Notes: a model not told the origin generated them from the letters alone. A stretch of DNA of 64,000 bases from a virus (IMGVR_UViG_3300042874_000422:1-64000); one strand, 5' to 3'. Shown: positions 1,438-59,932, counted from the first letter of the stretch. A program made the numbers and translations.

Positions 1438-4400
1438 TGCCGCTGCTCCGTGGATCTCTCCACGGGGCGAAGTGCGAAGACTGCCCGCTATCGATCAACG
1501 GTCGACCGCTTCGTCCCGTGTTCTCCGAGCACCCCGAGAAACCTCTGTGGGTTCTCATCGGGGAAGGGCCGGGCCGTACCGAAGTGCAGGTGCAGCGCCC
1601 GTTCCAGGGGAGTCAGCAGATCGTCGAGAAGATGCTGACCAAGATCGGTCGGCGTCGCGACGAGCTTGCGCTCACGACCGCCGTGCTGTGTGGCGCACCG
1701 GTCGGCACTGTCCCCGAGGCGCTGCGCGACAAAGCCGTCGCAGCGTGCAGCGGACGGCTCCAGGCCGAGCTGGCGCAATGGCCCGGCATCCCGGTGCTCA
1801 CGATGGGCGCGGTCGCGGCGCGGGCGGTGATTCCCAAGGCGACGCTCGACGCGATCGATCCGCCAGACGTTCCCAAGACGAAGAAGAAGAGCCAGAAGGA
1901 GAAGCAGAAGGCCGAGGCCAAACTGCTCGTGAAGACCGCGAAGAAGGAGGCTCGCGACATCGCTAAGATCGCAGCCGCCCGGCTCAAGCACAAGGTCGCG
2001 GTCCGAAAAAAGCAGCTCTACGACGAGGCGATGCGACCGCTGCCATCGGAGCCGTTTCGTCGACGGAAAAAGCCGTCCCGCGACCTCGTCGAGCGGTGGC
2101 TCGCATCCGACACCCCGAAGATGAAGGCGAGAGCCGACGCCGAGGCGATCCAGGAGTACGAGCTGGGCTTCAAGGAGCGCGAGCTGGCAGCGCAGTACGA
2201 GATCGCGCACCCCAAGCCGAAGAAGCCGGCGAAGTCCAAGCCGATCAAGATCACCGACATCGTATCGACGTGCTTCGACGTCGACATCGACGGCTCGGGA
2301 CCACGCCCGGTCATCCCGACGATCCATCCGGTGACGCTGCTCAAGGGTGGTGGCGCGACGATCGGCGGTACGCACACGCCCGACCTCGCGTTCATCAACC
2401 TCTACTACGACGCCGGCAAGGTCGACGCGCTCGCACGTGGCGTCGATATCCGGCTCAAGTTGAACGTCGAGACCGAGATCGCGAGCATCGATCGCACGGT
2501 CCAGCTGCTCCGCGAGATCGTCTTCACGGCGATCGAAGAGGGCGAGGCCGCGATCGACCTTGAGACCTACGTCGAGGATCCGGAACGACATCACGCCCTG
2601 ATGGCGTACATGGCGAAGATCCGGACCATCGGCATCGCGACCGAACACCGGTCGATCTCGCTGATGTGGGACCTGATCCCAGGGTGGGCGCAGAGCTACG
2701 TGCAGATGCTGCTCGGGCACCACAAGGTCATCAAGACGTTCCACAACGGGCTCTACGATCGCACCGTGTTCCTCGCGAACGGCTTCAACCTCGAAGGCCC
2801 GTGGGAGGACACGCTGCTCGCGCACCACGCCGCGTTCCCGGGCTGCGCGCACAAGCTGCAGGTCGTCACGAGCCAGTTCTTCGCGGTGTCGCCGTGGAAG
2901 AGCGAATTCCGCAACGCCGAGGAAACGCCCGAAGGGCTCACCACGTACAACGCGAAGGACACCGGTGCCACACGGGCGCTACGACCGGCGCTGACGGTCT
3001 GGGTCAAGCGGACCGGGACCGAGAAGATCTACGCGCTCGATCGCAAGATGTCCGAGATCGCCAGCAAGATGCACCTGGCGGGCATGCCGGTGGACCGAGG
3101 GGTCAACACCGAGCTGCTCAACACGTTTTCCAAGAACGTGAAGGAGTCGCGGCAAGCCGTCGATGACGTCGCTGCGGACCCGAAGATCCGGGAACAGATG
3201 TTCCATCACCTCGCGTTGCAGCAGGCGCAGAAGGCGAGGAAGAACGACCCGTCCGAGTACGTCACGCCCGAGGGTGTGACCGTCCGCGAACTAGAAGCAC
3301 GCTACTACAGGCGTCTCGACGAGATCAAATACAACAGCAAGTGGAAGTGGAAGGTCGGCTCGGGCAAGCACATTGCCGCGCTCTTGCTCGCGCTCGGCGT
3401 CGGGCTCCACCAGACGACCGCTAGCGGTCAGATCTCGACGAAGAAGGACATCCTCGAAACGCTCACGAACGTCCCGGTCGTTCGCGACATCCTGACGTTT
3501 CGCGAGAACGACAAGCTGCTCTCGACGTTCATCTGGCAGATCTTCGATCGCTTCGACCGCGACGGAAACCTGATCCAGTACGGCTACGCCGACGGCGACG
3601 ATCGCATCCACCCGATCTGGGTCGTCCACAAGATCACCGGTCGCTGGGCGTCGAGCGAGCCCGTCGTCTCCAACGTCCCGAAGGACAAATACCGCAAGCT
3701 CGCCGACGGCACCAAGCAGATCGTCCGGCCCAATCTCCGTCGACAGATCGTCGCTCCACCCGGGCGTATCTTCGTCGGCTTCGACTTCGCGCAGCTCGAA
3801 GCACGCATCATCGCGCTGATCTCGGGCGACCCGTTCCTGTGCGACGTGTTCGCTCGCGGCATGGACATCCATCGCGAGTGCGCTCGTGTGGTGTTCCCGC
3901 AGTTCGACACGCTGCCCAAGGACGATCAGAAGCAGGCACGCGATCTGGTGAAACCGCTGGAGTACGGCGCGTTCTACGGCGGCGCTGTCGAGACCTTGTG
4001 GAAGGACCTCCTCAAAGAAGGCCGGCAGATCTCGCTCGCGAACGTCGCCAAGGCGGTCGCGACGTTGATGGCGAAGATGGCCGGCGTCGTTCGCTGGCAG
4101 CAGGAGACGGTGCGCAAGGCGAGCTTGCCGCCGTTCATGATCAAGGAATTCCTCTACGGTCGCTGCCGCACGTTCCCGCTCGGCCAGGTCGAGGCAACGG
4201 AGGCGATGAACTTCGGCGTTCAGGCAGCCGGCGCGAGCATCATGAACACCGGCATGGCAATCGCAGACGACGGTTTATCAGCCTACAAGGAGGCGTTCGC
4301 CATCGCGCAAATCCATGACGCTGCGGTCTTCGAGTGTTGGGAAGACGACGCACCACGGCTCGCGGAAGACGTCGACCGGTGGTTCACGCAAAGCTACGAG

Positions 4401-4466
4401 AGCGGTGGCCGTTCGATCCCGTTCACGGTTGATGTGAAGATTGCGAAATCGTGGGCTGACGTATGA
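1437..4466 (+). CDS. polA: family A DNA polymerase with N-terminal uracil-DNA-glycosylase-like domain and 3'-5' exonuclease
   Basis: UDG4-like CEDCPL, GEGPGRTE, HP; Exo DLET, FHNGLYD, YNAKD; polymerase TGRWASS, DFAQLEAR, RDLVKPLEYGAFYG, QIHD. Confidence 0.93.
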   Translation: MPLLRGSLHGAKCEDCPLSINGRPLRPVFSEHPEKPLWVLIGEGPGRTEVQVQRPFQGSQQIVEKMLTKIGRRRDELALTTAVLCGAPVGTVPEALRDKAVAACSGRLQAELAQWPGIPVLTMGAVAARAVIPKATLDAIDPPDVPKTKKKSQKEKQKAEAKLLVKTAKKEARDIAKIAAARLKHKVAVRKKQLYDEAMRPLPSEPFRRRKKPSRDLVERWLASDTPKMKARADAEAIQEYELGFKERELAAQYEIAHPKPKKPAKSKPIKITDIVSTCFDVDIDGSGPRPVIPTIHPVTLLKGGGATIGGTHTPDLAFINLYYDAGKVDALARGVDIRLKLNVETEIASIDRTVQLLREIVFTAIEEGEAAIDLETYVEDPERHHALMAYMAKIRTIGIATEHRSISLMWDLIPGWAQSYVQMLLGHHKVIKTFHNGLYDRTVFLANGFNLEGPWEDTLLAHHAAFPGCAHKLQVVTSQFFAVSPWKSEFRNAEETPEGLTTYNAKDTGATRALRPALTVWVKRTGTEKIYALDRKMSEIASKMHLAGMPVDRGVNTELLNTFSKNVKESRQAVDDVAADPKIREQMFHHLALQQAQKARKNDPSEYVTPEGVTVRELEARYYRRLDEIKYNSKWKWKVGSGKHIAALLLALGVGLHQTTASGQISTKKDILETLTNVPVVRDILTFRENDKLLSTFIWQIFDRFDRDGNLIQYGYADGDDRIHPIWVVHKITGRWASSEPVVSNVPKDKYRKLADGTKQIVRPNLRRQIVAPPGRIFVGFDFAQLEARIIALISGDPFLCDVFARGMDIHRECARVVFPQFDTLPKDDQKQARDLVKPLEYGAFYGGAVETLWKDLLKEGRQISLANVAKAVATLMAKMAGVVRWQQETVRKASLPPFMIKEFLYGRCRTFPLGQVEATEAMNFGVQAAGASIMNTGMAIADDGLSAYKEAFAIAQIHDAAVFECWEDDAPRLAEDVDRWFTQSYESGGRSIPFTVDVKIAKSWADV

Positions 4467-4575
4467 CTGAGATAGAGCGCTTCTGGTCGAAAACAAAGCA
4501 AGACGGGGCGTGTGTCGTCTGGACCGATAGCCTGTCCGCGCACGGACTGTCGGACCCTCCTGGTAGAACGCTGGG
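4463..4575 (+). pseudogene. N-terminal remnant of an HNH homing endonuclease
   Basis: MTEIERFWSKTKQDGACVVWT is a typical HNH_3 N-terminus; similarity is then lost and no HNH motif follows. Confidence 0.6.
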
Positions 4576-4899
4576 ATGTTCGAAATTGGCTCCGACCGAT
4601 GGCCGGGCATCTCGAAGCTCGTCGAGGAATGCGGCGAAACGCTGCAGGTCGCCGGCAAGCTGATGGGCACCAAGGGCGAGATCAAACACTGGGACATGGC
4701 GAATCGTGCGACAGCGCCCAACGCGACGGAGAACCTCACCGAACGGCTGCAGAACGAGCTGGCTGATCTGCAGGCAGCGATCATCTTCGTCACGCGGCAC
4801 TGCAACCTCGATCTTCTCGCGATCAGTGAACGATCATCCCGCAAGCTGGAGCGTTTCGAGATGTGGCACCGACAACAGACCGCCGAATCGATTCGGTGA
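4576..4899 (+). CDS. MazG-like nucleotide pyrophosphohydrolase
   Basis: KLVEECGE...NELADL (EExxE/ExxD). Confidence 0.75.
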   Translation: MFEIGSDRWPGISKLVEECGETLQVAGKLMGTKGEIKHWDMANRATAPNATENLTERLQNELADLQAAIIFVTRHCNLDLLAISERSSRKLERFEMWHRQQTAESIR

Positions 4900-5153
4900 T
4901 GTCGGCCACCAACGGGCACAATAGCAACGGCCACAACGGCCACAACGACCATGATCTCGACGCACAGCTTGATCTCGATTTGCTAGAAGACGATCCCGAA
5001 GTCGTGCGGCCTTGCAGCGAGCGCCTTGGTTACGGTTCGTGGTGCTTCCTGCCGGACGGGCACGATGGCAATCACGAAGGCGTCCCGCCCGTGTACGGGC
5101 CGGTTGAAGAGCGCCCGAGGCTGTGGCGCGAGCACAAGGGTTATACCCGATGA
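4899..5153 (+). CDS. hypothetical protein with NGH repeats
   Basis: Coupled on both sides; C..WC....H.G.H motif. Confidence 0.55.
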   Translation: MSATNGHNSNGHNGHNDHDLDAQLDLDLLEDDPEVVRPCSERLGYGSWCFLPDGHDGNHEGVPPVYGPVEERPRLWREHKGYTR

Positions 5154-5707
5154 GCAAGAAACTCCTCGACCAGTTCGGCAACCCGTACTCCGACAGCTAC
5201 TGCACACCGCCGTGGCTCACGCAGCGGCTGCCGATGGTCGATCTCGATCCGTGCAGCAACCCGCGCTCGACCGTCCGCGCTCGTCGACGGTACTCGCTGG
5301 AAATGCGGCTCGACGGGCTCAAACTGCCGTGGGTCGGCTCGGTGTTCCTCAACTGGCCATACAGCGATCCGCTGCCGTGGGCGATCAAACTGCGCGAGGA
5401 GCTGGCGTCCGGTCGCTGCACGCAGGCGATCGTGCTGTGCAAGCACGATTCGTCGACGGAATGGTGGCGTGAGCTGGTGAAGGGCGCGACACCAGATCAG
5501 TGGCAGTTCTTCTCGCGCATCCAGTTCGACGAGCCCAAGGAGCTTGTCGCCGATCGCGTTGCGAAGTTCGTCGCCGAGGGCAAATCCGCCAAGTCCGGCG
5601 AGAAATCGTCGAACAACTTCTGCTCGACGATCATCCATCACCGAGGACAAAACGCGCAGCTCGTGCTCGAAGACTTCGCCGATCGGTGGGTCCGGATCGC
5701 CGCGTAA
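5150..5707 (+). CDS. phage DNA N6-adenine methyltransferase (Dam-like)
   Basis: TPPW, DLDPC, DGL..PW, FLNWPYS (NPPY variant), STEWW. Confidence 0.85.
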   Translation: MSKKLLDQFGNPYSDSYCTPPWLTQRLPMVDLDPCSNPRSTVRARRRYSLEMRLDGLKLPWVGSVFLNWPYSDPLPWAIKLREELASGRCTQAIVLCKHDSSTEWWRELVKGATPDQWQFFSRIQFDEPKELVADRVAKFVAEGKSAKSGEKSSNNFCSTIIHHRGQNAQLVLEDFADRWVRIAA

Positions 5708-5789
5708 CCGTCAGCGTTCGGGGCTACGGCCGGATCCGCCTGGCAGTCGGACGCTTGACGCTAGTTTTGACGTGTGGGAACGTCAGTGC

Positions 5790-5909
5790 ATGGCAAAGCG
5801 CAAGCGTAAGTCCCTGGCAGCGAAGCGTGCAGGCAAGAAGTGCAAGAACGGGTTCCGCAAGGGCTCGGCTCGTTGCCTGAAGCGTCCGCGCAAGCGCCGC
5901 AGCAAGTAA
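5790..5909 (+). CDS. 39-aa protamine-like basic protein
   Basis: MAKRKRKSLAAKRAGKKCKNGFRKGSARCLKRPRKRRSK. Confidence 0.65.
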   Translation: MAKRKRKSLAAKRAGKKCKNGFRKGSARCLKRPRKRRSK

Positions 5910-5966
5910 GACCGTCGTCGTCTTCTGATCTGACGTCGCGTTCTACGCGGTAACCTGGGAGGCACG

Positions 5967-6275
5967 ATGCACTTGCTCACGCAATGGGAGCAATCTCCCA
6001 CGTACGACCCGTACAACCCGAACCAGATCATCCGAGAGCCGAACAACATCGGCATCCCGGGCGGCGCGTACGGTTCGTTCTACTTCAACAAGCAGCCGAA
6101 CACCGTCAGTCAGGTGCTCGGCGGCTTCAGCTTCGGCGGGCTTCCCCCGTGGGGCCAGGCGTTGATCGTCGGCACGCTCGCGGCCGGCATCGGCTTCTAC
6201 GGCCTGAAGTATGTCGGTCCCAAGGTCGGGCTTCGCGGTCTGGCCGGCCCTCGTCGTCGGCGTAGGCGAACCTGA
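5967..6275 (+). CDS. putative virion membrane protein (single TM, LRGLAG + poly-Arg tail)
   Basis: GGAGG SD; TM ALIVGTLAAGIGFYGL. Confidence 0.75.
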   Translation: MHLLTQWEQSPTYDPYNPNQIIREPNNIGIPGGAYGSFYFNKQPNTVSQVLGGFSFGGLPPWGQALIVGTLAAGIGFYGLKYVGPKVGLRGLAGPRRRRRRT

Positions 6276-6535
6276 TGTCGAACCTCCCCGGGTCCCCGAC
6301 GTACCGGCTGCGCCTTCACACCGGTCCGGTGAAGGAGGCGCGGCGCTCGGTCGCGCGCCAGCTCAAGCGGGCGAAGATCAAGGTCGCCGTCAGCGGCACC
6401 GAGCACGTCTACGCCGACGTCAAGGCGAACAGCTGCGAGGACGCTCAGATGCGGCTCGCCAAGGCGCTCCAGAAGAAAGGTCTGCGTCGGCTGTCGACGC
6501 AGGCATTCTCGACGAGCTGCACGCGGAGGCGCTGA
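6275..6535 (+). CDS. small basic protein
   Basis: TGATG coupling; K/R-rich with Cys pair. Confidence 0.7.
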   Translation: MSNLPGSPTYRLRLHTGPVKEARRSVARQLKRAKIKVAVSGTEHVYADVKANSCEDAQMRLAKALQKKGLRRLSTQAFSTSCTRRR

Positions 6536-6759
6536 TGGCCAAAGCGAAGTGCCACGTTGAATTCGTCACCGGGCGCGGCGGTCCTGCCGCTGTCCTGATG
6601 GACGATCGCGGTCGGTCACTCAACGTGATCAACTATCCCCGCGATCACCACCTCACGCCGAAGGCGAAAACGGCGGCTCGCCGTCGTCTGATGCGCGGGT
6701 GCCAGGAGCTGTCGCGCTCGCTCGGCGGTGCCAAGCGCAAGCGGAGACGCTCTCGCTGA
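6535..6759 (+). CDS. small basic protein (SLGG-AKRKRRRSR tail)
   Basis: TGATG coupling; MAKAKCHVEF start. Confidence 0.7.
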   Translation: MAKAKCHVEFVTGRGGPAAVLMDDRGRSLNVINYPRDHHLTPKAKTAARRRLMRGCQELSRSLGGAKRKRRRSR

Positions 6760-6880
6760 TCATCAAGGGCCGGGCACGCTGCTCTACTACTCGGGCTCGT
6801 GCGTCCGCAGCGACTACAAGACCGGCGATCCGCGCAAGACCGGCAGCCTCGCCGGCAAGCGACGCAAGCGCCGTCGTTGA
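6758..6880 (+). pseudogene. 3' remnant of a basic-protein gene with no good start
   Basis: Frame reads PGTLLYYSGSCVRSDYKTGDPRKTGSLAGKRRKRRR-stop, the same tail type as its neighbours. Confidence 0.55.
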
Positions 6881-6912
6881 TTCGATCTTGACAGCCCTGT
6901 ACGCTCGGGTGC

Positions 6913-7254
6913 ATGGCCAAGCGGATCGACGATAGCCACCAGCCGTTCAAGCGCACGGGCGCGATCGGCCCTGGCCCCAAGAAGCGCCCCAAGCTCCACC
7001 AGGAGCGCGACTGGGAGTGCCAGAAGGGCAAGAACACCAAGACCCACTACGTGCAGGTCTGCACGTACGTCGGCGACAACCGCAAGCGGCGCGGCAAGAA
7101 GGTCAAGGTGCTCCGCTCGAAGAAGTCGAAGAAGAGCTACAACAAGCTCTGGCGGAAGTGGGCCAAGCGCAACGCGCGCATCCAGGCGCTGCAGAACAAG
7201 GGCGCCAAGACCGGCTACCGCTGCCGCAAGACGCCCGCGTCCAGGTGCCGCTAA
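6913..7254 (+). CDS. Lys/Arg-rich basic protein
   Basis: TACGCT-N7-ATG leaderless start; 4 Cys. Confidence 0.75.
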   Translation: MAKRIDDSHQPFKRTGAIGPGPKKRPKLHQERDWECQKGKNTKTHYVQVCTYVGDNRKRRGKKVKVLRSKKSKKSYNKLWRKWAKRNARIQALQNKGAKTGYRCRKTPASRCR

Positions 7255-7577
7255 TGCCGGCGATCATGGCGCTCGAAGGCCCGAAGAACCTCGGCGCGGT
7301 TCGCGTCACGCTCGGTCCGCGTGGTCGCAACGTCGCCACGTCGACGCTCGGGCCGGTCGCGGGCCCGCTCGGGCTCGTCATGCGCGGTCGCGGCGGCGCG
7401 ACGCACACGCTGATGGGCGTCACCGACACGATCAAGGCGCATCCGTGGGCGATCGTCGCCGGCATCCTGTTCGGCGCGTACGCGCTGACCAAAGGCTGGT
7501 CGCCCGGCATGATCTGGGGCGGGCACCAGGCGGCGCACGCTCGCAACAAGTCGCTGCACGGTCGGAGGCGGCGCTGA
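7254..7577 (+). CDS. putative virion membrane protein (TM, SLHG-RRRR tail)
   Basis: TAATG coupling; TM WAIVAGILFGAYAL; repeated LG. Confidence 0.7.
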   Translation: MPAIMALEGPKNLGAVRVTLGPRGRNVATSTLGPVAGPLGLVMRGRGGATHTLMGVTDTIKAHPWAIVAGILFGAYALTKGWSPGMIWGGHQAAHARNKSLHGRRRR

Positions 7578-7897
7578 TGGCGCGGCGCGGGGCTCCAGTC
7601 CGGGCCACGCTGCTCTGCGCGATCAAGTTCTGGTCGATCGACGACGGCAAGACCGCCACGCTGCGTTCGGGCGTGCGCAGCGTCGTGCGCAAGCAGGGAT
7701 TCACACCGGCCGCGATCGATCGCGCCGAGCGTGAGCTGGCTCGCGAAGGCAAGATTCAAGTCGGCGGCACGCGGAGCGGCAAGACGCTCAAGCTGCTCGA
7801 CGACGTCAACTGCTCGACGGTAAAACTCGCGCCGTGGACGGATGACGGTTACCCCGGCGCGTCGCTCTCCGGGCGCCGCCGCAAGCGGAGGCACTGA
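7577..7897 (+). CDS. small basic protein (SLSG-RRRKRRH tail)
   Basis: TGATG coupling. Confidence 0.7.
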   Translation: MARRGAPVRATLLCAIKFWSIDDGKTATLRSGVRSVVRKQGFTPAAIDRAERELAREGKIQVGGTRSGKTLKLLDDVNCSTVKLAPWTDDGYPGASLSGRRRKRRH

Positions 7898-8274
7898 TGG
7901 CTCGTCGTCGGAAAAGCAAAGGGCTCAGAGGGCTCGGGTATCACTCGATCCAGCGGTTCACGATTACCGGTTGTACGCCCAAGCGGGTTTACACCAGTGT
8001 CGTTGACGTCTTACTCGCGGCCAAGCACCGCTCGAAGCGGACGAGCAAGACCTGTAAAGTCTCGCACGGGCTCCCCGGCGCCGAGCGTGAGATCGCGTCG
8101 TGCGCCGACCGCAAGTGCCGCACGGTCAGCGGCAAGGCGATCAGCATGCGCAAGCTCTACGAGATGGAGCAGGGCGCCAAGCCCGAAGCCAGCGGTCACG
8201 GCAAGCGCGGCAAGGCGGTGCGGAACATCCGCGCCAAGGGCGCCCGCAGGGTCAAAGGCAAGCGGGTGTTCTGA
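7897..8274 (+). CDS. basic protein with N-terminal MARRRKSKG-LRGLG leader
   Basis: TGATG coupling; 4 Cys. Confidence 0.7.
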   Translation: MARRRKSKGLRGLGYHSIQRFTITGCTPKRVYTSVVDVLLAAKHRSKRTSKTCKVSHGLPGAEREIASCADRKCRTVSGKAISMRKLYEMEQGAKPEASGHGKRGKAVRNIRAKGARRVKGKRVF

Positions 8275-8489
8275 TGGCCAAACGTAAGCGCAAGCAGCTC
8301 GCCGGGCTCGTCGACGATGTCCGCCATGGCTGCCGCGTCACGATCGTCACGCCGCAAGGTCAGCAGCGCACCGGTCGCGCGGTGATGCGCGGCCCTGCCG
8401 GCTGGGTGCTCAACATGGGCGGCAAGCACGGCACGCCGGGCATCGCGAGCGACAAGAACATCATCCGTGTTCACTGCAAGAGAGGCTGA
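8274..8489 (+). CDS. basic protein with MAKRKRKQ-LAG leader
   Basis: TGATG coupling. Confidence 0.7.
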   Translation: MAKRKRKQLAGLVDDVRHGCRVTIVTPQGQQRTGRAVMRGPAGWVLNMGGKHGTPGIASDKNIIRVHCKRG

Positions 8490-8490
8490 C

Positions 8491-8751
8491 ATGGCGAAAG
8501 CGGTTTGTATCGAACACAAAGGCGGCAAGTGCGTACGATGGCGCATCGGTGGCGCCACGGTCACGCTCGCCGGTCTCGGCGGTCCCCGAGCGTCTCGGAG
8601 AGCGCAGTCATGTGTCTCTCGCGAGATCGCCAAGCACTGCCGGAAGAAACGTGGCAAGGGCTGCAAGATTCCGTCGGTGAGCAAGCAGGCGCAGGCCATC
8701 GCTTACAGCATCTGCCGCCGCAAGGGCTTCCGCTCGATCGCAGCTCGCTAG
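8491..8751 (+). CDS. Cys-rich basic protein (LAGLGG)
   Basis: GAGG SD; QAQAIAYSICRRKG. Confidence 0.7.
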   Translation: MAKAVCIEHKGGKCVRWRIGGATVTLAGLGGPRASRRAQSCVSREIAKHCRKKRGKGCKIPSVSKQAQAIAYSICRRKGFRSIAAR

Positions 8752-9248
8752 CGGTACTGCGGGTGTTCCTGTAGGAACTTGCGACGCGCTGCTTTGGCGC
8801 CCTCGGTGTCGTTGTCGTTCTCGACGAGCGCCGGGTACGACGCGATCCGCTTGCCGGAATCCTCGTCGTAGAAGTCGCGACCGTCCTGGTAGAACTGGCC
8901 GGTCCCGAGGAGCCCGCCCGCACGCTTGCGCCGCGTCTTGAAGACGTAGACGCCACCACCGATGACGATGAGCGCGAGTGCGAGCCACAGCCACGGGAAC
9001 GGCTTGGCGACGACGGGCGCAGTGCCGGTGACGTTGATGATCTCACCCGTGTTGAGGCTCGCTAGGAGCGTCTGCACGGTGTCTGGATCGCCGCCGATCG
9101 CGATGGCCTTGTCGGCGACCTGGTTCAGCTCGGTGCCGGTGTACTTCGCCATCTCGGCGTACGCCTCTTCCCATGAGCCGCGTGACAGGGCGTCGACGAT
9201 GATCTGGGCGGAAGCGTACGTCGGCGACACGGCGGCGAGGGAGAGCAT
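8748..9248 (-). CDS. single-pass membrane protein
   Basis: TM FPWLWLALALIVIGGGVYVF followed by KTRRKR-AGGLLG; TAGCAT-N6-ATG. Confidence 0.75.
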   Translation of the reverse strand: MLSLAAVSPTYASAQIIVDALSRGSWEEAYAEMAKYTGTELNQVADKAIAIGGDPDTVQTLLASLNTGEIINVTGTAPVVAKPFPWLWLALALIVIGGGVYVFKTRRKRAGGLLGTGQFYQDGRDFYDEDSGKRIASYPALVENDNDTEGAKAARRKFLQEHPQYR

Positions 9249-9284
9249 GCCGCGATGCTACCACGGCTGATGTATCGTCACGGA
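9249..9284. promoter_or_regulatory. back-to-back leaderless -10 promoters
   Basis: minus: TGG-TAGCAT-N6-ATG; plus: TATCGT-N6-ATG. Confidence 0.6.
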
Positions 9285-10112
9285 ATGTCGCTCGCTGACG
9301 CCCCACCGTGGACCCTGCGGTTCCTCACCGACAATTGGGACACGATCGAACGCGGTAGCATGACCGAATGGATGCCTCGCGAGGTCTCCGGGTCAACGGC
9401 CCGAAAGCGGCGCGCCGACGCCTTGGGATGCGGCCACTACGGCTGCGTGTTTCTCACCAACACCCCGGGGCTGGTGATGAAGATCAGCTCGGACGCCTCG
9501 GAGGCGACGTTCATCAACGCGGCGCTCAAGCTCGGCGAGTGGCCCAGCGGAATCGTTCAGTACAAGGCGATCCTCGATCTGCCCGGCGCGCATCGCGGGC
9601 GCCCCGTGTTCATCATCTGGCGGGAAGAAGCCTTCGACGTCGGTAAGCCTGACCGCGAGCACTACGCCTACAAGGAATTCGAGCGGTACCACGAGGCGTA
9701 CATGCACGCGGCGCGGGTGATCCGCGAATCGTCGACGAAGGCGACTTGGCGCAAGCAGCTTGCCGACGCGCACCAGTACGAAGAGTGGGCGTGGAACAAC
9801 GTCATCTGGGAAGACGGCGCGCCTGTGCGTAAGGGCTACGGCATGACGTCGACGCCGCCGTTCCTGCGCTTTCGCGGCGGGCAGCGGCTCGCGGCGGCGT
9901 TCCGCATCGTGCAGATCTGTTTCGAGATGATGGAGAACACGGCGTACGCGCATGAGGTTGGCGCGGCGCTGACGTTCTACCTGGAGCACGGCATCTTGCT
10001 CGCCGACGTCCACCTGAACAACATCGGCAAGGTCACGCGGCACGATCCCGACTACGGCGATCAGACGTACACGGTGATCACCGATCCTGGCCATGCTGTG
10101 TTCTTCAAGTAG
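9285..10112 (+). CDS. protein kinase-like protein
   Basis: Gly-loop LGCGHYGCVF, VMKIS, catalytic LADVHLNNIG, VITDPG. Confidence 0.75.
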   Translation: MSLADAPPWTLRFLTDNWDTIERGSMTEWMPREVSGSTARKRRADALGCGHYGCVFLTNTPGLVMKISSDASEATFINAALKLGEWPSGIVQYKAILDLPGAHRGRPVFIIWREEAFDVGKPDREHYAYKEFERYHEAYMHAARVIRESSTKATWRKQLADAHQYEEWAWNNVIWEDGAPVRKGYGMTSTPPFLRFRGGQRLAAAFRIVQICFEMMENTAYAHEVGAALTFYLEHGILLADVHLNNIGKVTRHDPDYGDQTYTVITDPGHAVFFK

Positions 10113-12200: not shown

Positions 12201-12413
12201 ATGGCCACCTGTCGAAAGCTGACGCTCAAGGAGATGATCGCCACCCGTGAACGCGAGGCAGGCGTCAAGCTCCCCAAGAGCGCCAAGATCGGGTTGGAGC
12301 TGCTTCCTCCGCAGTACGTCTGCACCGGAGAGGGTGTGGGCGGCTTGCGCGGAACTACCGTCGCAAAACGGCGGCAACCACGCCGGCGCCGATCACCACG
12401 GCGCCGATCGTAG
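12201..12413 (+). CDS. small protein with GLRG + protamine-like RRQPRRRRSPRRRS tail
   Basis: GAGGAG SD; Arg-rich tail. Confidence 0.65.
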   Translation: MATCRKLTLKEMIATREREAGVKLPKSAKIGLELLPPQYVCTGEGVGGLRGTTVAKRRQPRRRRSPRRRS

Positions 12414-22969: not shown

Positions 22970-24079
22970 CTAGCTGCGGCGGCGGCGCCGGACCTTGAGG
23001 ATTTTGGAGACGAGCGTGGCCTTGCCGCCGGCCATCTTCGAAGCTCCGACGATCTTGAGATGCGCCGAGGCGTACTTGCGCAGATCTTCGATCGGCTGCT
23101 CCATCAGCATGGCCGGCGACATGCGGGCGAACTTCGCAGCCTTCGGGGCGGCGGGCTTGCCGGCGGGCTTGCCGGCGACGATGCGGGGCGCAGCTTTGAC
23201 CTCGGTCTTGGTCTTCGCGGGCTCGGGCGTCGCACCGTTGCTGAGCGCGTCGTAGTCGACGGCGGGCGTGTTGTCGTGCTCGTCCTGGTCCTCGCCCTCG
23301 ACATCGCCGCCCCACTCTTCGTCGTCCGCGTCGGACGTATCGACGTCCACCGACATCGTGGTGCTCGGCATGTACTCGCTGTCGCCCGCGCCGGTCCAGT
23401 TGCCGACGACAAGGTACTCGCAGACGCGCATCTTTTGGAACAAGTGATCGTTGGGCACGCACACGACGTGCTCGGGATCGATGCGGCAGATGATCACGCG
23501 CTCGCTGAAGTTGTGAGCGTACTGCAGCGCGCCCACGTGCAGCCCCTGGTGACACGCGGTCGCCGGGTTGTCAGAGATCAGGTTGCGCGCCATCTTCACG
23601 ACGCGACCGGGGCTGTTGTCGATCGTCCCCGAGTGAGCGTCCATGTAGTCGTGCTTGACGCCCTTGTACGCGAGGAACGTGCCGTCCGGCTCGATCGGCA
23701 CACCGACGTGCTGCAGGAAAGCGTGCAGCTGCGTGCGCGACTGGAACGAGGGATTCTTGTGGAGCCGCTCGTAGAACTTGAACAGCGGCTCCGGGCTCTC
23801 GCCAGCCGCCGCCATCGTGAAGATGCGGCGCGACAGCGAGTCCGGCAGCGGGACGCTGTCGTACGAGATCGTGCGACCGTCGACGACGAACTTGTCGCCC
23901 AGCCACTGCTGCAGCGAGCCGCTGAGCGTGACGAGCTTTTCGATGTCGCCCCACTGCTCGTCGAAGATCGCTCGCCGCAGCGTGTGGTACTGCGGCGTGC
24001 CGGCATGCACGGTGTGCGACTTGCCGGTGAGGAGGACGGTGATGCTCTCGTTGGTCATGGTGAACGGGATCGTTGACAT
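22970..24079 (-). CDS. rIIB: rIIB-like protein
   Basis: NPS, DG.FLAYK.V, D.HSG, C..GLHV, VVCVP.D, K.RVC.Y; follows rIIA. Confidence 0.88.
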   Translation of the reverse strand: MSTIPFTMTNESITVLLTGKSHTVHAGTPQYHTLRRAIFDEQWGDIEKLVTLSGSLQQWLGDKFVVDGRTISYDSVPLPDSLSRRIFTMAAAGESPEPLFKFYERLHKNPSFQSRTQLHAFLQHVGVPIEPDGTFLAYKGVKHDYMDAHSGTIDNSPGRVVKMARNLISDNPATACHQGLHVGALQYAHNFSERVIICRIDPEHVVCVPNDHLFQKMRVCEYLVVGNWTGAGDSEYMPSTTMSVDVDTSDADDEEWGGDVEGEDQDEHDNTPAVDYDALSNGATPEPAKTKTEVKAAPRIVAGKPAGKPAAPKAAKFARMSPAMLMEQPIEDLRKYASAHLKIVGASKMAGGKATLVSKILKVRRRRRS

Positions 24080-24204
24080 GGGGCGTGTCCTTTCGTGTTT
24101 GCTGTGGTTGCTGTGCTCGCCGCAGATGCGGCAGCGTGTCGTGAGTAGCTCGTCGGGAATGAAAGCGTGGGACCTGTACCGGGCCATTGGTGATTCGTCG
24201 TCCA

Positions 24205-38626: not shown

Positions 38627-39528
38627 CGACGCTTCGCCTTCGTCACCGAGCGCACGGGCTTACCCTTGCGCTTGGCTGCCGCGACTTTCTTGATGAGGCT
38701 CGACGGGTTCTCAGGCAGCGGCGCGGGCGGCGGTGGCGGATTCGCATTGTACCGTGCGAGTGCGATGATCTGCTGCACCGTCACGATCAGCGGCTTGGGT
38801 GGGTGCTCAGCGTCGTACCAGTCCACGCTCTCCCACATCGGATCGAGCGGTACCGGCACGCCCTCGATGTACTGCACCGACATCACCAGCGAGATGAAAT
38901 GCTGTCCGGCTTTCTCGACGAACGTCGAGACGTAAGGTGCGTGCTTGGACACTGAGACCGCGCCGACGTCGAGGCCGGTCGAGATCTTCACCGCGCGGCG
39001 GATCGCACTCTCGTTCGACTCGCCGACTTCTAGCTCGCCTTCGGGGAGCACGTAGTGCCCACTCTTCTTGAGCTTGCCGAGGAGGACTTTGCCTTGGTGC
39101 AAAATCAGCGCGGCGACCGCGACGCGGACGACGGGCTTGTCGGTCGCATCGATCTCGCCGATCTTGTAGTGCGGCGAGACAGCGCCCGGATCAGCGGGAT
39201 CCGTCGGCCACTTTGTGATGGAGTAGTGCTCGGCGTCTGAGCGATAGAAAAACGTCGCGACCGGCTCCTGGCTCTCGGGCGGTGAAAACACACCGTGAAC
39301 GCGGCGACCGCCGATTGCCAGCTCGGGCGGTTTCGAGCCTATCGTGATGTAGACAGGCTTTCCATCCCCGCCTTTGCCGAGCACGAGCAGCGCGTCATCG
39401 CCTAGTTCTGCGCGGCGTTGCGCATAGGCTTCCGACAGCATGTTGATCGCGAGCGATGGTAGTTTTTCCTGGGCGATTCGCTCAGGTGTGTCGACAGCGT
39501 GCGGGCTGATGCGAATGATCGTCTTCAC
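38623..39528 (-). CDS. Nudix-domain protein
   Basis: LPEGELEVGES.ESAIRRAVKISTGL, a Nudix box with the catalytic Glu residues replaced. Confidence 0.7.
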   Translation of the reverse strand: MKTIIRISPHAVDTPERIAQEKLPSLAINMLSEAYAQRRAELGDDALLVLGKGGDGKPVYITIGSKPPELAIGGRRVHGVFSPPESQEPVATFFYRSDAEHYSITKWPTDPADPGAVSPHYKIGEIDATDKPVVRVAVAALILHQGKVLLGKLKKSGHYVLPEGELEVGESNESAIRRAVKISTGLDVGAVSVSKHAPYVSTFVEKAGQHFISLVMSVQYIEGVPVPLDPMWESVDWYDAEHPPKPLIVTVQQIIALARYNANPPPPPAPLPENPSSLIKKVAAAKRKGKPVRSVTKAKRR

Positions 39529-46003: not shown

Positions 46004-46264
46004 ATGGCCAAAGCAAAGACCGCATCGTCCACGAAGTCCGCGAAGAAGAAGGCCGGCTGCCGTGGCGCGACGATTTCGTTCAAGACCAAGCGCGGCAAGA
46101 CGATCGAATTCAAGGGCCGCGCCGGCAAGGCGTGCGGTCCTCGTCGCAAGCCGACGCCGCCGCCCAAGCACTTCCGCACCGAGTTTGCCCGTCAGGCGAA
46201 AGCCTGCAAGGGCGGAACGCGCGGCGTGTTCCTGAAGTGCATGAAGCGCCTGCAGTACAGCTAG
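46004..46264 (+). CDS. Lys-rich basic protein
   Basis: TAGGAT-N7-ATG; 4 Cys. Confidence 0.7.
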   Translation: MAKAKTASSTKSAKKKAGCRGATISFKTKRGKTIEFKGRAGKACGPRRKPTPPPKHFRTEFARQAKACKGGTRGVFLKCMKRLQYS

Positions 46265-54225: not shown

Positions 54226-54247
54226 GCGAACGAGGGCCGCCGCAAAC

Positions 54248-54463: not shown

Positions 54464-54536
54464 GTGAGTCATGCGATGCTTTCTGTCGCATGCCTCGCCG
54501 TGGTCCATGGCGAGCATTACTAGTGACACCGATGTC

Positions 54537-56684: not shown

Positions 56685-56867
56685 TTATCGAGTCGGGTTG
56701 GAGCAGCTACCGGTGAACACCAGCCCGCTGCGATGCTTCTTGCTCTTGGGGACTCTGCAGATCTCGACGCCGCGCTTCGTTCGCTTGTTGAACACGCAGC
56801 GACAGTCGGTGCGCTGAACCGGACGTTCCCCGACGCCGGCCAACGTCATGACGTGATTCTTCGCCAC
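56685..56867 (-). CDS. small basic Cys-rich protein (LAGVG leader)
   Basis: TAGTG overlap; 4 Cys. Confidence 0.6.
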   Translation of the reverse strand: MAKNHVMTLAGVGERPVQRTDCRCVFNKRTKRGVEICRVPKSKKHRSGLVFTGSCSNPTR

Positions 56868-59239: not shown

Positions 59240-59932
59240 CTACGCGGGGAAGTCGAGAGCCTCGGCGTAAGGGACCTCGACCGCGTACTTGTTGCGGCCG
59301 GGTAGCGTCGTGTCGAGCGCGACCCACTTCGACGGGCCGTTCTTCGGCAACCCTGCGAGCGGGAAGATGTGCGACCAGTCGTCGCTCTTGCTCTCTTTCA
59401 TCACGCGAAGGCGCGGCGTGATGCCATTGAGCGCGAGCAAGGTCGCGATCAGCACGCTCTGGTCGTCGCAATCACCGCCGCCGAATTCCAGCGTGCGCCG
59501 CGCGCTCTGATAAAGGTCGATACCCTCGACGTCGCCGTTCGGGAACTTGATCGGCGCGACATCGCCCGTGTACCGGACGTTGTCCTTGACGAAGTTGTAC
59601 ACCGCACGCGCCTCGCACTCACCATCGCGCTCGGGGCACTGCGACGTGATCTTGAGTGCGAGCTTGCGCATCTCCGGATCTTGCACCGACTTGTGGACGA
59701 GTTTCTGGATCGACGCGAGGCGCTCTTCGATCGGCATTCCTTCGCTGGCGCGAAGCGTCGTTCGCATGTTGCCGTCGGAGTAGCCGTCGATCGCCGGCGC
59801 CTCTTCGTACCGCTTCGACATGAAACGTACACGTCCGAGGCTCGCCGTCTTGCGCTGACGGTAAATGAAGTACCCGCCAAGGAGAGCGACACCGAGACCA
59901 ACGAGGCCCCATTGCTTGCGTGACAGCGCCAT
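59240..59932 (-). CDS. membrane-anchored transglutaminase-like cysteine protease
   Basis: VYNFVK.NVRY..D, GDCDD, SHIF, W.ALDTT (Cys-His-Asp); N-terminal TM. Confidence 0.85.
   Translation of the reverse strand: MALSRKQWGLVGLGVALLGGYFIYRQRKTASLGRVRFMSKRYEEAPAIDGYSDGNMRTTLRASEGMPIEERLASIQKLVHKSVQDPEMRKLALKITSQCPERDGECEARAVYNFVKDNVRYTGDVAPIKFPNGDVEGIDLYQSARRTLEFGGGDCDDQSVLIATLLALNGITPRLRVMKESKSDDWSHIFPLAGLPKNGPSKWVALDTTLPGRNKYAVEVPYAEALDFPA

What the first reader, a model, noticed from the sequence alone, without database searches (positions are those of the whole stretch)
5790..8751. Largely translationally coupled array of about 11 different protamine-like, Cys-paired proteins
Seen: consecutive 39-125 aa genes, mostly joined by TGATG/TAATG. 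All have strongly K/R-rich segments and most have an even number of Cys, yet they are not obviously homologous. More such genes lie at 12201, 43141, 46004, 54537 and 56685. Inference: a multi-component DNA-condensing nucleoprotein core, reminiscent of adenovirus VII/mu and unusual for bacterial viruses.
Basis: partly seen in the sequence, partly recalled or inferred. Interest (0 to 1): 0.78.

Follow-up and report, generated by a model that had tools for sequence, protein, structure and literature searches.

The report
Tagged basic-protein array in a virus
An uncultured 77-kb bacterial virus carries a conserved row of eleven unrelated small, very basic proteins that share an arginine-rich end tag and paired cysteines. 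They are most likely DNA-bound internal parts of the virus particle, which would be rare among bacterial viruses, but nothing has been tested at the bench.

Summary
Window 5790-8751 carries 11 consecutive + strand genes of 39-125 aa, all with pI 10.4-12.0. Six of the 10 junctions are TGATG or TAATG. A run of 11 basic genes never arose in 200,000 gene-order shuffles.

They are real genes. GC3 is 0.75-0.97. Nine of the 11 have homologues in related viral contigs, and a tenth (gene 8) has 47 in the protein database. dN/dS is 0.22-0.60 for six of the seven tested.

They are not paralogues and match no Pfam or PHROG family. They are also not uniformly protamine-like. One is a 51% Lys/Arg peptide, two carry a hydrophobic helix, and one is a winged-helix protein.

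Two traits unite them:
- a terminal tag, LxG followed by 4-7 Lys/Arg at the C-terminus, or MA(K/R)5-6..LxG at the N-terminus;
- conserved, co-varying cysteine pairs.

In distant relatives the gene-6 family sits inside the module that holds the virus's transglutaminase-like cysteine enzyme and membrane proteins.

Best reading (about 0.45): DNA-bound virion-internal proteins. The closest analogues are T4 internal proteins and the adenovirus core. Virion location, DNA condensation and tag cleavage are untested.

The parts
5790..5909 (+). Gene 1: a 39-aa peptide, 51% Lys/Arg, net +20, with two Cys 10 residues apart. It is the first gene of the array in every relative.
   Evidence: Orthologues of 30-36 aa keep both Cys in L007, L008, L009, L014/L037 and L023. 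dN/dS is 0.53 against L007.
5967..6275 (+). Gene 2: a conserved N-terminal domain, a hydrophobic helix (ALIVGTLAAGIGFYGL), and then GLRGLAGPRRRRRRT. It is a probable tail-anchored membrane protein with a polybasic tail.
   Evidence: Maximum Kyte-Doolittle 19-residue score 1.48. Its profile finds 57 clusters among 1.8e9 representatives; 23 end in at least 4 K/R, and 13 of those have LxG just before the run. Homologues are present in 19 loci.
6275..6535 (+). Gene 3: 86 aa, net +15, with two conserved Cys. It ends in TRRR.
   Evidence: 81% identical in L007 and 78% in L022/L023. dN/dS is 0.22. It is fused behind a gene-10 domain in L023.
6535..6759 (+). Gene 4: 74 aa, two Cys, with the C-terminal tag SLGGAKRKRRRSR.
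   Evidence: L024 holds a homologue, 63% identical by blastp (64% by tblastn), that ends in GLSGRRRRR and keeps both Cys.
6728..6880 (+). Gene 5: up to 50 aa with an uncertain start (GTG at 6728, overlapping gene 4 by 32 nt). It ends in SLAGKRRKRRR.
   Evidence: Codon score is low and no homologue was found. The family-typical tag at its end is the main argument that it is translated.
6913..7254 (+). Gene 6: 113 aa, 33% Lys/Arg, net +31, with four invariant Cys. It is the best-conserved soluble member. TACGCT lies 7 nt before its ATG and there is no Shine-Dalgarno sequence.
   Evidence: 50 homologues, all unnamed. C36, C50, C104 and C112 are invariant in 47 sequences. The AF2 model has pLDDT 80, with three strands and two helices. 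There is no fold match; the best Z is 3.7. Synteny is shown and the upstream motif.
7254..7577 (+). Gene 7: 107 aa, no Cys, with a hydrophobic helix (WAIVAGILFGAYAL) followed by NKSLHGRRRR. It is a probable tail-anchored membrane protein.
   Evidence: Maximum Kyte-Doolittle score 1.34. Homologues in L007, L023, L024, L033, L021, L008 and L009 mostly end in (A/S)L(S/H)G(A)RRRR.
7577..7897 (+). Gene 8: 106 aa, a winged-helix domain, then the conserved PWTDDGYPGAxLxG motif, then a disordered tail RRRKRRH. It has two invariant Cys.
   Evidence: 47 homologues and their alignment. The AF2 model has pLDDT 76 and the order H-b-H-H-b-b, with the tail below pLDDT 50. Nearly all top Foldseek rows are winged-helix DNA binders, the best being SSV1 F-93 at E = 8e-3.
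7897..8274 (+). Gene 9: 125 aa, net +27, four Cys, with the N-terminal leader MARRRKSKGLRGLG.
   Evidence: Homologues in L023 (55%), L033 and L007 keep the HG(L/Y)PG.E...C....C motif. dN/dS is about 1 against L007, on a saturated alignment of 33% identity.
8274..8489 (+). Gene 10: 71 aa, a widespread small domain to which a leader (MAKRKRKQLAG), a Cys pair and a basic end have been added.
   Evidence: At least 308 homologues. Among the best 120, both Cys are present in 22, both are absent in 95, and one is present in 3. The pair goes with a polybasic leader (20 of 22 against 8 of 98). dN/dS is 0.27 against L008.
8491..8751 (+). Gene 11: 86 aa, net +20, six Cys. It is the last gene of the array.
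   Evidence: L033 holds a homologue on the opposite strand, 53% identical by tblastn (56% by blastp).
8748..9248 (-). A neighbouring tail-anchored membrane protein. Its homologue lies inside the array, on the array strand, in L014/L037.
   Evidence: 39% identity to L014 6160-6534.
12201..12413 (+). A satellite gene of the same kind: 70 aa, two Cys, ending in GGLRGTTVAKRRQPRRRRSPRRRS.
   Evidence: Homologues follow the GP88-family gene in L033 (52%) and L008 (33%).
46004..46264 (+). A satellite basic gene: 86 aa, net +24, four Cys, starting with MAK.
56685..56867 (-). A satellite basic gene: 60 aa, pI 10.9, four Cys, starting with MAK. It lies inside the membrane-protein module.
59240..59932 (-). 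A transglutaminase-like (papain-fold) Cys enzyme with an N-terminal anchor. It is a candidate, not shown, for cutting at the LxG hinge.
   Evidence: Pfam Transglut_core, E = 7e-7. Its homologue lies 2-5 kb from the gene-6 homologue in L013, L016 and L027.

Best explanation
The array encodes abundant, DNA-bound, virion-internal proteins of a probably tailless, membrane-containing bacterial virus.

The proteins come from unrelated families. All have been given the same two adaptations:
- A terminal polybasic tag set off by an L-x-G hinge. The tag binds the phosphate backbone without sequence preference. It loads the protein onto replicated viral DNA, so the protein enters the particle together with the genome.
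- One or two cysteine pairs, which lock the small fold once the particle is in an oxidising medium.

The conserved core probably neutralises and compacts the DNA and ties it to the inner membrane. That core is the gene-1 peptide, the two hydrophobic-helix proteins 2 and 7, and gene 6. The variable members (3, 4, 5, 8, 9, 10, 11) are DNA-riding cargo, possibly delivered with the genome. The L-x-G hinge may be cut by the virus's transglutaminase-like Cys enzyme during maturation.

Shown here: the genes are real, conserved and unrelated to each other; the tag and the Cys pairs are non-random; gene 8 has a winged-helix fold; and gene 6 is syntenic with the membrane and enzyme module in relatives.

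Inferred only: DNA binding in vivo, presence in the virion, condensation, disulfide formation and cleavage.
For: 1. Real and selected genes. GC3 is 0.75-0.97. dN/dS is 0.22-0.60 for genes 1, 2, 3, 6, 7 and 10, against 0.32 for the Dam control. The families have 47 to over 300 members.

2. Tag. Nine proteins of the genome end in at least 4 K/R. In five of them, all in the array, LxG lies 0-2 residues before the run, against a background rate of 0.023 (binomial 7.5e-7). The same tag occurs on non-homologous proteins in L008, L009, L013, L015, L016, L021, L024, L027 and L033. In the gene-8 family the hinge is conserved while the tail varies in length and in K/R order. The tail is predicted to be disordered. 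KRRR-type tetrapeptides bind DNA at about 200 nM regardless of order (PMC4797294).

3. Cysteines. Four are invariant in gene 6 and two in gene 8. In gene 10 the pair is all-or-none (22 both, 95 neither, 3 single), and it co-occurs with the polybasic leader (Fisher 2e-14, not corrected for phylogeny).

4. Signals of high expression. MA(K/R) starts occur in 7 of 11 array genes against 6 of 122 others (p = 4e-6). A repeated GGAGG-CNC-TGATG-GC coupling cassette sits at three junctions.

5. Context. In L013, L016 and L027 the gene-6 homologue lies among homologues of window genes 58907, 59240 (transglutaminase-like), 61333, 62016 and 62615. In L014/L037 it is followed by homologues of 37368 and 37940. 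Hydrophobic-helix proteins with basic tails are interleaved with the array.

6. No terminase, portal, HK97 capsid or tail family was found in 103 proteins scanned. The single 'portal' PHROG hit also rings in all 14 control genomes.

7. Domain fusions. Gene 10 is fused to gene 3 in L023, and to another tagged domain in L021. Both linkers read K(R/K)GPLG.
Against: There is no direct evidence of expression or of virion location. No RNA run was listed, and there are no proteomics for an uncultured virus.

In this genome the array is co-directional with the polymerase, MazG-like and Dam block and lies immediately after it. That position would fit early or middle expression.

The promoter-like motifs near genes 1 and 6 also occur before replication genes, so they do not date expression.

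Part of the terminal Arg, and the Met-Ala start, is explained by the coupling cassette, in which the Shine-Dalgarno sequence lies in CGG AGG codons. Basic residues after a membrane helix are expected from the positive-inside rule.

Cysteine pairs could bind metal in dimers instead of forming disulfides.

The 534-aa protein at genome 71837-73441 has a weak FtsK-like Walker A (E = 0.012). A packaging motor, and therefore packaging of naked DNA, is not excluded.

The gene-6 model has no DNA-binding fold match.
Confidence: 0.45

Rival explanations
1. The proteins are non-structural, intracellular nucleic-acid binders made with the replication genes. Their role would be to compact or shut off the host nucleoid, to organise replicating viral DNA, or to regulate transcription. 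They would not be packaged.
For: The array lies at the 3' end of the + strand block of helicase, exonuclease, Sak4-like protein, PolA and Dam. The same placement after a methylase or replication block recurs in L007, L014/L037, L023, L008 and L009. Gene 8 is a winged-helix protein, the commonest regulator fold. The accessory members turn over quickly between relatives, as early host-takeover genes usually do.
Against: Conserved, co-varying Cys pairs without CxxC spacing are unusual for proteins that stay in a reducing cytoplasm. In distant relatives gene 6 lies inside the membrane and enzyme module. Hydrophobic-helix proteins of the same kind as those in the 59-62 kb module are part of the array. 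The same tag sits on larger proteins of that module in relatives.
Confidence: 0.28
2. There is no common function. The shared features would be by-products. Arg-rich ends and Met-Ala starts would come from the translational-coupling cassette, basic tails after helices from the positive-inside rule, and high pI from GC-rich codon bias. The genes would be a mixed bag of orphan accessory genes.
For: GGAGG lies in the last codons of the upstream gene at junctions 3>4, 7>8 and 8>9, followed by TGATGGC. The genome is 64% GC. Genes 2 and 7 fit the positive-inside rule.
Against: The cassette needs only about two Arg codons, whereas the tails have 4-7 K/R and use varied codons. Tags also end genes that are not followed by a coupled gene, namely gene 5 and 12201. 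The LxG hinge is not explained by coupling. Only 23 of 133 proteins are this basic, and 11 of them are contiguous. In the gene-10 family the leader and the Cys pair were gained together.
Confidence: 0.12
3. The proteins are RNA-binding or ribosome-associated. The operon is organised like a ribosomal-protein operon and the proteins carry arginine-rich motifs. Their role would be to redirect translation or to protect viral RNA.
For: The proteins are small, very basic, mutually unrelated, translationally coupled and start with MAK/MAR, as in ribosomal-protein operons. Arginine-rich motifs bind RNA as well as DNA (established knowledge).
Against: There is no hit to any ribosomal or RNA-binding family in Pfam or PHROGs at E <= 1. 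Gene 8 is a winged helix. Two members have hydrophobic helices. Gene 6 is syntenic with membrane and enzyme genes in relatives.
Confidence: 0.06
4. The ORFs are chance open frames in GC-rich DNA.
For: High-GC DNA yields many long spurious frames, and 69 ORFs of at least 30 aa overlap 4500-10000. Gene 5 is weak.
Against: GC3 is 0.75-0.97 in the named frames. Homologues are recovered at the protein level with dN/dS below 1, and the families have tens to hundreds of members.
Confidence: 0.01

Closest known systems
[quoted passage not shown]
   Same: These are several small, basic, mutually dissimilar proteins, present at about 300 copies each per head, that bind DNA at low salt. They share only a short terminal targeting peptide, which a viral protease removes. 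The locus is poorly conserved between relatives, and other basic proteins carrying the same tag substitute. At least some are delivered with the DNA.
   Different: The T4 tag is an N-terminal 10-residue propeptide that binds the scaffolding core. It is not polybasic and not a DNA binder. T4 is a tailed phage with a portal and terminase and packages naked DNA. No homology was found. Here the tag is polybasic, sits at either end of the protein, and is accompanied by Cys pairs.
Adenovirus core and precursor proteins (VII, V, mu/pX, and pVI with its pVIc peptide) and the protease AVP (PMC12090768, PMC4246237, PMC4797294)
   Same: Small, positively charged virus-coded proteins coat the genome and enter the particle with it. 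Precursors are cut by a viral Cys protease at short Gly-containing motifs; the review names Met-Arg-Gly-Gly as one consensus sequence. The C-terminal peptide pVIc carries KRRR, which is its DNA-binding core. Some tags here read LGG or LxGG directly before the basic run.
   Different: There is no sequence homology. The host is bacterial, with Shine-Dalgarno sites and coupled genes. There are eleven or more families instead of three. Most hinges (LSG, LAG, LHG) do not fit the adenain consensus as I recall it from memory, (M/I/L)XGG|X or (M/I/L)XGX|G. The candidate enzyme has a transglutaminase-like fold, not the adenain fold. Cleavage is not shown.
Chlorovirus PBCV-1 virion DNA-binding proteins (PMC3281028)
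   Same: This is an internal-membrane icosahedral virus whose particle holds several different high-pI proteins that stay bound to the released DNA and are thought to neutralise it.
   Different: It is a eukaryotic giant virus. The proteins are larger (up to about 70 kDa). No shared terminal tag or gene array has been described.
Portogloboviridae (SPV1) nucleoprotein core formed by VP1 (PMC8459092)
   Same: This is a prokaryotic, tailless, membrane-containing virus with single jelly-roll shell proteins, in which the DNA is wound up with a viral protein into a core.
   Different: It is archaeal, has a 20-kb circular genome, and uses one nucleocapsid protein that forms a regular filament. I did not run a targeted comparison with VP1.
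Tripartite C-terminal sorting signals (LPXTG/sortase, PEP-CTERM/exosortase and kin; from established knowledge)
   Same: A short motif near the C-terminus is followed by an Arg/Lys cluster, and it is shared by unrelated proteins.
   Different: Those signals place a membrane helix between the motif and the basic cluster, and they need a signal peptide and a sortase-type enzyme. Here the basic run follows LxG directly and the proteins have no signal peptide.

Membership tests
Adenovirus core proteins VII / V / mu | Sequence membership in the Pfam adenovirus core-protein families | tested here: not met
   No such family was reported for 10 of the 11 proteins at E <= 1. Gene 1 (39 aa) was not scanned.
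Adenovirus core proteins VII / V / mu | Small, Arg/Lys-rich proteins encoded by the virus | tested here: met
   pI is 10.4-12.0. K/R content is 51% in gene 1, 33% in gene 6 and 27% in genes 4 and 9.
Adenovirus core proteins VII / V / mu | Located in the virion core, bound to the genome | not testable with these tools
   The virus is uncultured and there are no proteomics.
Adenovirus core proteins VII / V / mu | Precursors cut by the viral protease at (M/I/L)XGG|X or (M/I/L)XGX|G (consensus recalled from memory) | tested here: inconclusive
   An LxG hinge precedes the basic run in 5 of 9 C-terminal runs. A few hinges read LGG or LxGG, but most read LSG, LAG or LHG. Cleavage itself is not testable here.
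T4-type internal proteins with a capsid-targeting sequence | Unrelated small basic proteins that share one short terminal tag | tested here: met
   There is no paralogy and the tag is shared.
T4-type internal proteins with a capsid-targeting sequence | The tag is an N-terminal propeptide with affinity for the scaffold core, removed by a prohead serine protease of a tailed phage | tested here: not met
   The tag is polybasic and mostly C-terminal. No prohead protease, scaffold, portal or HK97 capsid family was found in the genome.
Winged-helix DNA-binding domain (gene 8 only) | H-b-H-H-b-b topology that superposes on solved winged-helix proteins | tested here: met
   The AF2 model has H8-19, H30-39, H44-57, E60-63 and E70-73. 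Nearly all top Foldseek rows are winged helices with probabilities of 0.95-1.0, but the best E-value is only 8e-3. The profile against PDB sequences gives only MarR at E = 0.13.
Ribosomal proteins | Match to a ribosomal-protein family model | tested here: not met
   No Pfam or PHROG hit at E <= 1.
Sortase / exosortase-type C-terminal sorting signals | Motif, then a transmembrane helix, then a basic cluster, on proteins that have a signal peptide | tested here: not met
   The basic run follows LxG within 0-2 residues and there is no N-terminal signal peptide.
Portogloboviridae VP1 nucleocapsid protein | Homology to SPV1 VP1 | not tested
   No targeted comparison was run. PDB sequence searches with genes 8 and 10 and with the gene 6 and gene 8 profiles gave nothing significant.

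The most novel reading that the evidence does not exclude
A bacterial virus packs its 77-kb genome as a multi-protein nucleoprotein core. Ten or more unrelated protein families have each been recruited by adding one portable, possibly cleavable polybasic 'DNA address tag' (LxG plus Arg4-7) and a disulfide pair. Some members tie the DNA to the inner membrane. This would put an adenovirus/NCLDV-style core and maturation logic in the bacterial virosphere, and it hints at assembly around condensed DNA instead of motor-driven packaging of naked DNA.
Probability: 0.3. Interest if true: 0.85.

Novelty: new variant of a known kind. Interest (0 to 1): 0.66.

Why it matters
The standing view is that phage DNA is neutralised by cations and polyamines, not by basic proteins (PMC3281028). 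A review of membrane-containing phages does not contain the words 'condens', 'nucleoprotein' or 'DNA-binding' at all (PMC6356626).

If the array proteins are virion-internal, four things follow:
- It would be the first protein-rich DNA core described in a bacterial virus of this build.
- It would link bacterial tailless viruses to the core-and-maturation logic of adenoviruses and giant viruses.
- It would make concurrent assembly testable in a prokaryotic system.
- It would define a portable tag for loading arbitrary proteins onto packaged DNA.

Even if the proteins are not packaged, the result stands as at least nine new conserved protein families. Unrelated folds have convergently acquired the same polybasic tag and a co-varying Cys pair, and that pattern needs an explanation.

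Tried and rejected
- Pfam and PHROG scans of 10 array proteins found nothing at E <= 1 beyond noise.
- blastn of the region against GenBank phages gave no match. The polymerase has only distant hits there, at most 28% identity.
- PDB sequence searches with genes 8 and 10 and with the gene-6 and gene-8 profiles gave nothing significant.
- The gene-6 model was searched against PDB by Foldseek, against 48,161 chains by VIA-align, and against BFVD. No match stood out: best E = 0.24-0.45 and best Z = 3.7.
- The ESM Atlas gave only weak leads: DsrD-like for gene 8 (score 0.89) and DUF2188-like for gene 9 (TM about 0.4).
- The sigma-70 and terminator scan of 4400-9400 found no promoter, and terminator-like sites were at chance level.
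- No tRNA was found.
- The DNA repeat search shows only short, imperfect codon-level similarities and the junction cassette, so the tag is not a DNA repeat.
- No RNA holder was listed for the region. The only full holder is a cave metagenome that may be the source itself.
- The genome-contig scan found one 1.6-kb MAG contig labelled Reyranella, which is too short to name a host.
The 76-93 kb contigs that hold the closest homologues could therefore not be fetched.
- I first took the L013 and L016 proteins ending in SISGxRRRRR for capsid homologues of 55060-55770. BLAST links them only to 61333, a membrane protein, so I dropped that claim.
- The 'portal' PHROG hit at 38803-39123 was rejected because the model also rings in all 14 control genomes.
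- FtsK and Pox_A32 ATPase searches gave only a 10.6-bit Walker-A hit in genome 71837-73441.

Full report
**What is there.** The window is the first 64 kb of a single 77,539-bp virus record with direct terminal repeats. GC content is about 64%. Between 5790 and 8751 the + strand carries eleven ORFs of 39-125 aa. Their pI runs from 10.36 to 12.0 and their net charge from +7 to +31, together +180 over 959 residues. Six of the ten junctions are one-base overlaps of the TGATG or TAATG type. One junction has a 1-nt spacer, one is a 32-nt overlap (gene 5, GTG start), and two are gaps of 57 and 32 nt. My codon-usage gene call gives 133 genes for the genome. Of these, 23 have pI >= 10.3, and a run of eleven such genes never arose in 200,000 shuffles of gene order.

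**Are they genes?** GC3 in the named frames is 0.75-0.97, as in the long genes of this genome. No Pfam or PHROG family matches. Homologues nevertheless exist.
- Gene 6 has 50 homologues in the 5.8-billion-protein collection. All are unnamed, and several lie on contigs of 76-88 kb.
- Gene 8 has 47 homologues.
- Gene 10 has at least 308 homologues.
- A profile of gene 2 finds 57 clusters among 1.8 billion representatives.
- Across 43 fetched loci, genes 1, 2, 3, 4, 6, 7, 9, 10 and 11 have homologues, while genes 5 and 8 have none there. Gene 8 is covered.

Nei-Gojobori dN/dS against the nearest available relatives is 0.22 (gene 3), 0.27 (gene 10), 0.44 (gene 2), 0.49 (gene 7), 0.53 (gene 1) and 0.60 (gene 6). 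The Dam control next door gives 0.32. Gene 9 gives about 1 on a saturated alignment of 33% identity. Only gene 5 stays doubtful, with a low codon score, an uncertain start and no homologue.

**They are not one kind of protein.** All-against-all blastp shows no paralogy inside any genome apart from the basic ends.
- Gene 1 is a true polybasic peptide with 51% K/R and two Cys. It opens the array in every relative.
- Genes 2 and 7 have no Cys. Each carries a Gly/Ala-rich hydrophobic helix (Kyte-Doolittle 1.48 and 1.34) followed by a poly-Arg tail. This is the same build as the small proteins of the 59.9-62.3 kb block.
- Gene 8 folds as a winged helix (pLDDT 76) with a disordered basic tail. Nearly all top Foldseek rows are winged-helix DNA binders, including SSV1 F-93, STIV F93, CodY, PadR, MarR and ORC, although the best E-value is only 8e-3.
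- Gene 6 gives a confident model (pLDDT 80) of three strands and two helices with no recognisable relative.
- Gene 10 is a widespread small domain.

**The shared tag.** Nine proteins of the genome end in a run of at least four K/R. In five of them, all in the array (genes 2, 4, 5, 7, 8), the run is preceded within 0-2 residues by L-x-G. The background rate for that is 0.023 (binomial 7.5e-7). Genes 9 and 10 carry the mirror image at the N-terminus (MARRRKSKGLRGLG, MAKRKRKQLAG), and gene 1 has basic runs at both ends.

The tag recurs on non-homologous proteins in the relatives, with endings such as GLSGARRRRR, GLRGARRRRRK, SLAGRRRR, GLGGYRRRRRR, ALSGRRRR, SISGFRRRRRR, VAGLRRRRR and AMSGAKRRRRRK. 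Some of these proteins are larger proteins of the membrane module. In the gene-2 family, 23 of 57 cluster representatives end in at least four K/R, and 13 of these have LxG in front. In the gene-8 family the hinge region PWTDDGYPGAxLxG is nearly invariant, while the tail varies in length (4-9 residues) and in K/R order. That pattern points to an electrostatic function, not a structural one.

The tag is not a DNA repeat, because codons vary. Only the junction cassette GGAGG-CNC-TGATG-GC recurs. This cassette places the next gene's Shine-Dalgarno sequence in CGG AGG codons. It explains about two of the terminal Arg residues and the Met-Ala start, but neither the longer runs nor the hinge. Published single-molecule work shows that any four K/R residues, whatever their order, bind duplex DNA at roughly 200 nM and slide on it (PMC4797294).

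**Cysteines.** Counts are 2, 0, 2, 2, 1, 4, 0, 2, 4, 2, 6. Eight of the nine Cys-bearing proteins have an even number, against 11 of 28 among other small proteins (p = 0.019). More telling is conservation:
- All four Cys of gene 6 are invariant in 47 sequences.
- Both Cys of gene 8 are invariant in 39 sequences.
- In the best 120 gene-10 homologues, both Cys are present in 22, both are absent in 95, and only 3 have one.

The Cys-pair form of gene 10 is also the form with the polybasic leader (20 of 22 against 8 of 98, Fisher 2e-14, not corrected for shared ancestry). A pre-existing domain therefore gained the leader, the Cys pair and a basic end together. The spacings are not CxxC. Two-Cys proteins cannot make a zinc site alone, so intramolecular disulfides are the simplest reading. 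That in turn suggests the proteins end up outside the reducing cytoplasm. This step is inference. The genome also encodes a thioredoxin-fold protein with a CGAC motif at 49445-49801.

**Context.** Upstream on the same strand lie a UDG-PolA fusion (1518-4466), a small 4576-4899 gene and a Dam methylase (5150-5707). At the right end of the genome the same strand holds an SNF2 helicase, a PD-(D/E)XK exonuclease and a Sak4-like protein. In this genome, then, the array closes the replication block.

Scans of 103 proteins found thymidylate synthase, dCMP deaminase, endonuclease VII, RNA ligase, rIIA/rIIB, an integrase, lysis enzymes and a transglutaminase-like protein (59240-59932). They found no terminase, portal, HK97 capsid or tail family. 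The one 'portal' PHROG hit also rings in all control genomes. This agrees with earlier unchecked notes of this scan that call the virus tailless and membrane-containing. I did not test the capsid fold myself.

The array is conserved in relatives, but its content is fluid:
- L007: genes 1, 2, 3, 6, 7, 9.
- L023: genes 1, 2, 10-3 fusion, two others, 6, 7, 9.
- L024: genes 2, 4, 6, 7.
- L033: genes 1, 2, 6, 7, a 484-aa acidic anchored protein, 9, with 11 on the other strand.
- L008: 16 consecutive basic ORFs.
- L009: about nine basic ORFs.

In the more distant L013, L016 and L027 (85-126 kb contigs), the gene-6 homologue is not next to replication genes. It lies among homologues of window genes 58907, 59240, 61333, 62016 and 62615. 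In L014/L037 it is followed by homologues of 37368 and 37940. In L045 the gene-8 homologue sits beside homologues of 35928 and 36407. Association with the membrane and enzyme module in several independent arrangements is the main reason I favour a particle role.

**Expression hints.** Seven of the eleven genes start with MA(K/R), against 6 of 122 elsewhere (p = 4e-6). Of those six, five are basic proteins (pI 10.4-11.9); the exception is 37940 (pI 5.6). This start is typical of highly translated genes (established knowledge). Gene 6 has TACGCT seven bases before its ATG and no Shine-Dalgarno sequence. The motif TANNNT placed 5-8 nt before the start occurs at 26 of 133 genes, against a random rate of 0.007. 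Since it also precedes replication genes, it does not date expression. No RNA data exist.

**Mechanism proposed.** The tag loads otherwise unrelated proteins onto replicated viral DNA. The conserved members (1, 2, 6, 7) neutralise and compact the DNA and tie it to the inner membrane through their hydrophobic helices. The variable members ride along as cargo. The Cys pairs lock the small folds after release. The LxG hinge may be a cutting site for the transglutaminase-like Cys enzyme. The fusions in L023 and L021, whose linkers read K(R/K)GPLG, fit a processed precursor but do not prove it.

A charge count shows feasibility only. One copy of each protein offers +180 against about 155,000 phosphates, so some hundreds of copies of each would be needed. 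That is the order reported for the T4 internal proteins, about 300 copies each (PMC9026906).

**Rivals.**
- Early or middle intracellular DNA binders. The position after the replication block and the fast turnover of members fit this. The Cys pairs, the membrane-type members and the synteny in distant relatives do not.
- By-products of coupling, topology rules and GC bias. This explains parts of the pattern, but not the hinge, the long runs, the joint gain in gene 10 or the clustering.
- RNA or ribosome binders. There is no family support.
- Chance ORFs. This is excluded for ten of the eleven.

**Comparison with what is known.** The nearest bacterial precedent is the T4 internal-protein locus. 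There, unrelated basic proteins share a short, protease-removed targeting peptide, the locus is poorly conserved, and the proteins are delivered with the DNA (PMC9026906). The logic is the same, but the tag chemistry, the targeting partner and the virus architecture differ.

The adenovirus core (mu, V, VII) and pVI/pVIc share three features with this array: coating of the DNA by basic proteins, a KRRR-type DNA-riding peptide, and cleavage next to Gly by a Cys protease (PMC12090768, PMC4246237, PMC4797294). There is no homology, most hinges do not fit the adenain consensus, and the candidate enzyme has another fold.

PBCV-1 (several high-pI virion DNA-binding proteins, PMC3281028) and SPV1 (VP1 nucleoprotein core, PMC8459092) are architectural analogues. 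The array is therefore not a member of any of these families. It would work like them.

Noticed in passing
whole genome; examples at window 9285, 35008, 37313, 37368, 45045, 45092, 59972, 61333: TANNNT ending 5-8 nt before the start codon, often as cgTGaTAnnnT, occurs at 26 of 133 genes against a random rate of 0.007. This suggests many leaderless transcripts from extended -10 promoters. The class includes both replication genes (genome 73508, 75100) and genes of the 35-62 kb region.
   Followed up: partly
upstream of window 4576, 10234, 16463, 38623, 47422, 48146 and genome 71189, 71837, 73508, 75100: A second recurrent upstream motif, (T)GTC(G/T)GAC followed by 8 nt and then TAnnn(T), is visible in the printed upstream sequences. 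Gene 1 of the array has a near copy with 9-nt spacing, at 5744-5771.
   Followed up: no
L007 4110-8048; L009 81-4979; L004, L005 and L006 polymerase matches: The UDG-PolA gene of relatives is much longer (1312 and 1632 aa against 982 aa here). The tblastn matches are split by in-frame insertions of about 0.8-1.1 kb, which may be inteins or other mobile insertions.
   Followed up: no
window 53916-54829 (- strand): An HNH endonuclease-like ORF (53916-54245) lies next to an HTH_17/excisionase-like ORF. My codon-based caller left this stretch uncalled, which hints at a foreign mobile insert.
   Followed up: partly
window 49445-49801 (- strand): A virus-encoded thioredoxin-fold protein (Pfam Thioredoxin_2, 39 bits) with a CGAC active-site-like motif. 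It could relate to nucleotide metabolism or to the thiol chemistry of the Cys-paired proteins.
   Followed up: partly
L023 1251-1724; L021 571-1062: The gene-10 domain is fused in frame to gene 3 in L023 and to another tagged domain in L021. Both linkers read K(R/K)GPLG, which could mark a polyprotein boundary.
   Followed up: partly
genome 71837-73441 (- strand; L010 9837-11441): A conserved 534-aa protein, 52-56% identical in relatives, with no family hit except a 10.6-bit FtsK-like Walker A. It is a candidate packaging or replication ATPase.
   Followed up: partly
window 22970-26286 (- strand): rIIA- and rIIB-like genes (PHROG E = 6e-90 and 8e-59) occur in a virus that has no recognisable tailed-phage structural genes.
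   Followed up: no
window 55978-56670 (- strand): A 230-aa basic protein holds many LxGLG repeats (MAGLG, LNGLG three times, LLGLG). It is the same motif class as the hinge of the array tags.
   Followed up: no
L033 5647-7101; L024 1453-2958: In two close relatives a 484-501 aa acidic protein (pI 4.6-4.7) with a C-terminal hydrophobic anchor is inserted in the middle of the basic array, between genes 7 and 9. blastp at E <= 1e-4 against the proteins called in this genome gave no hit for it.
   Followed up: no
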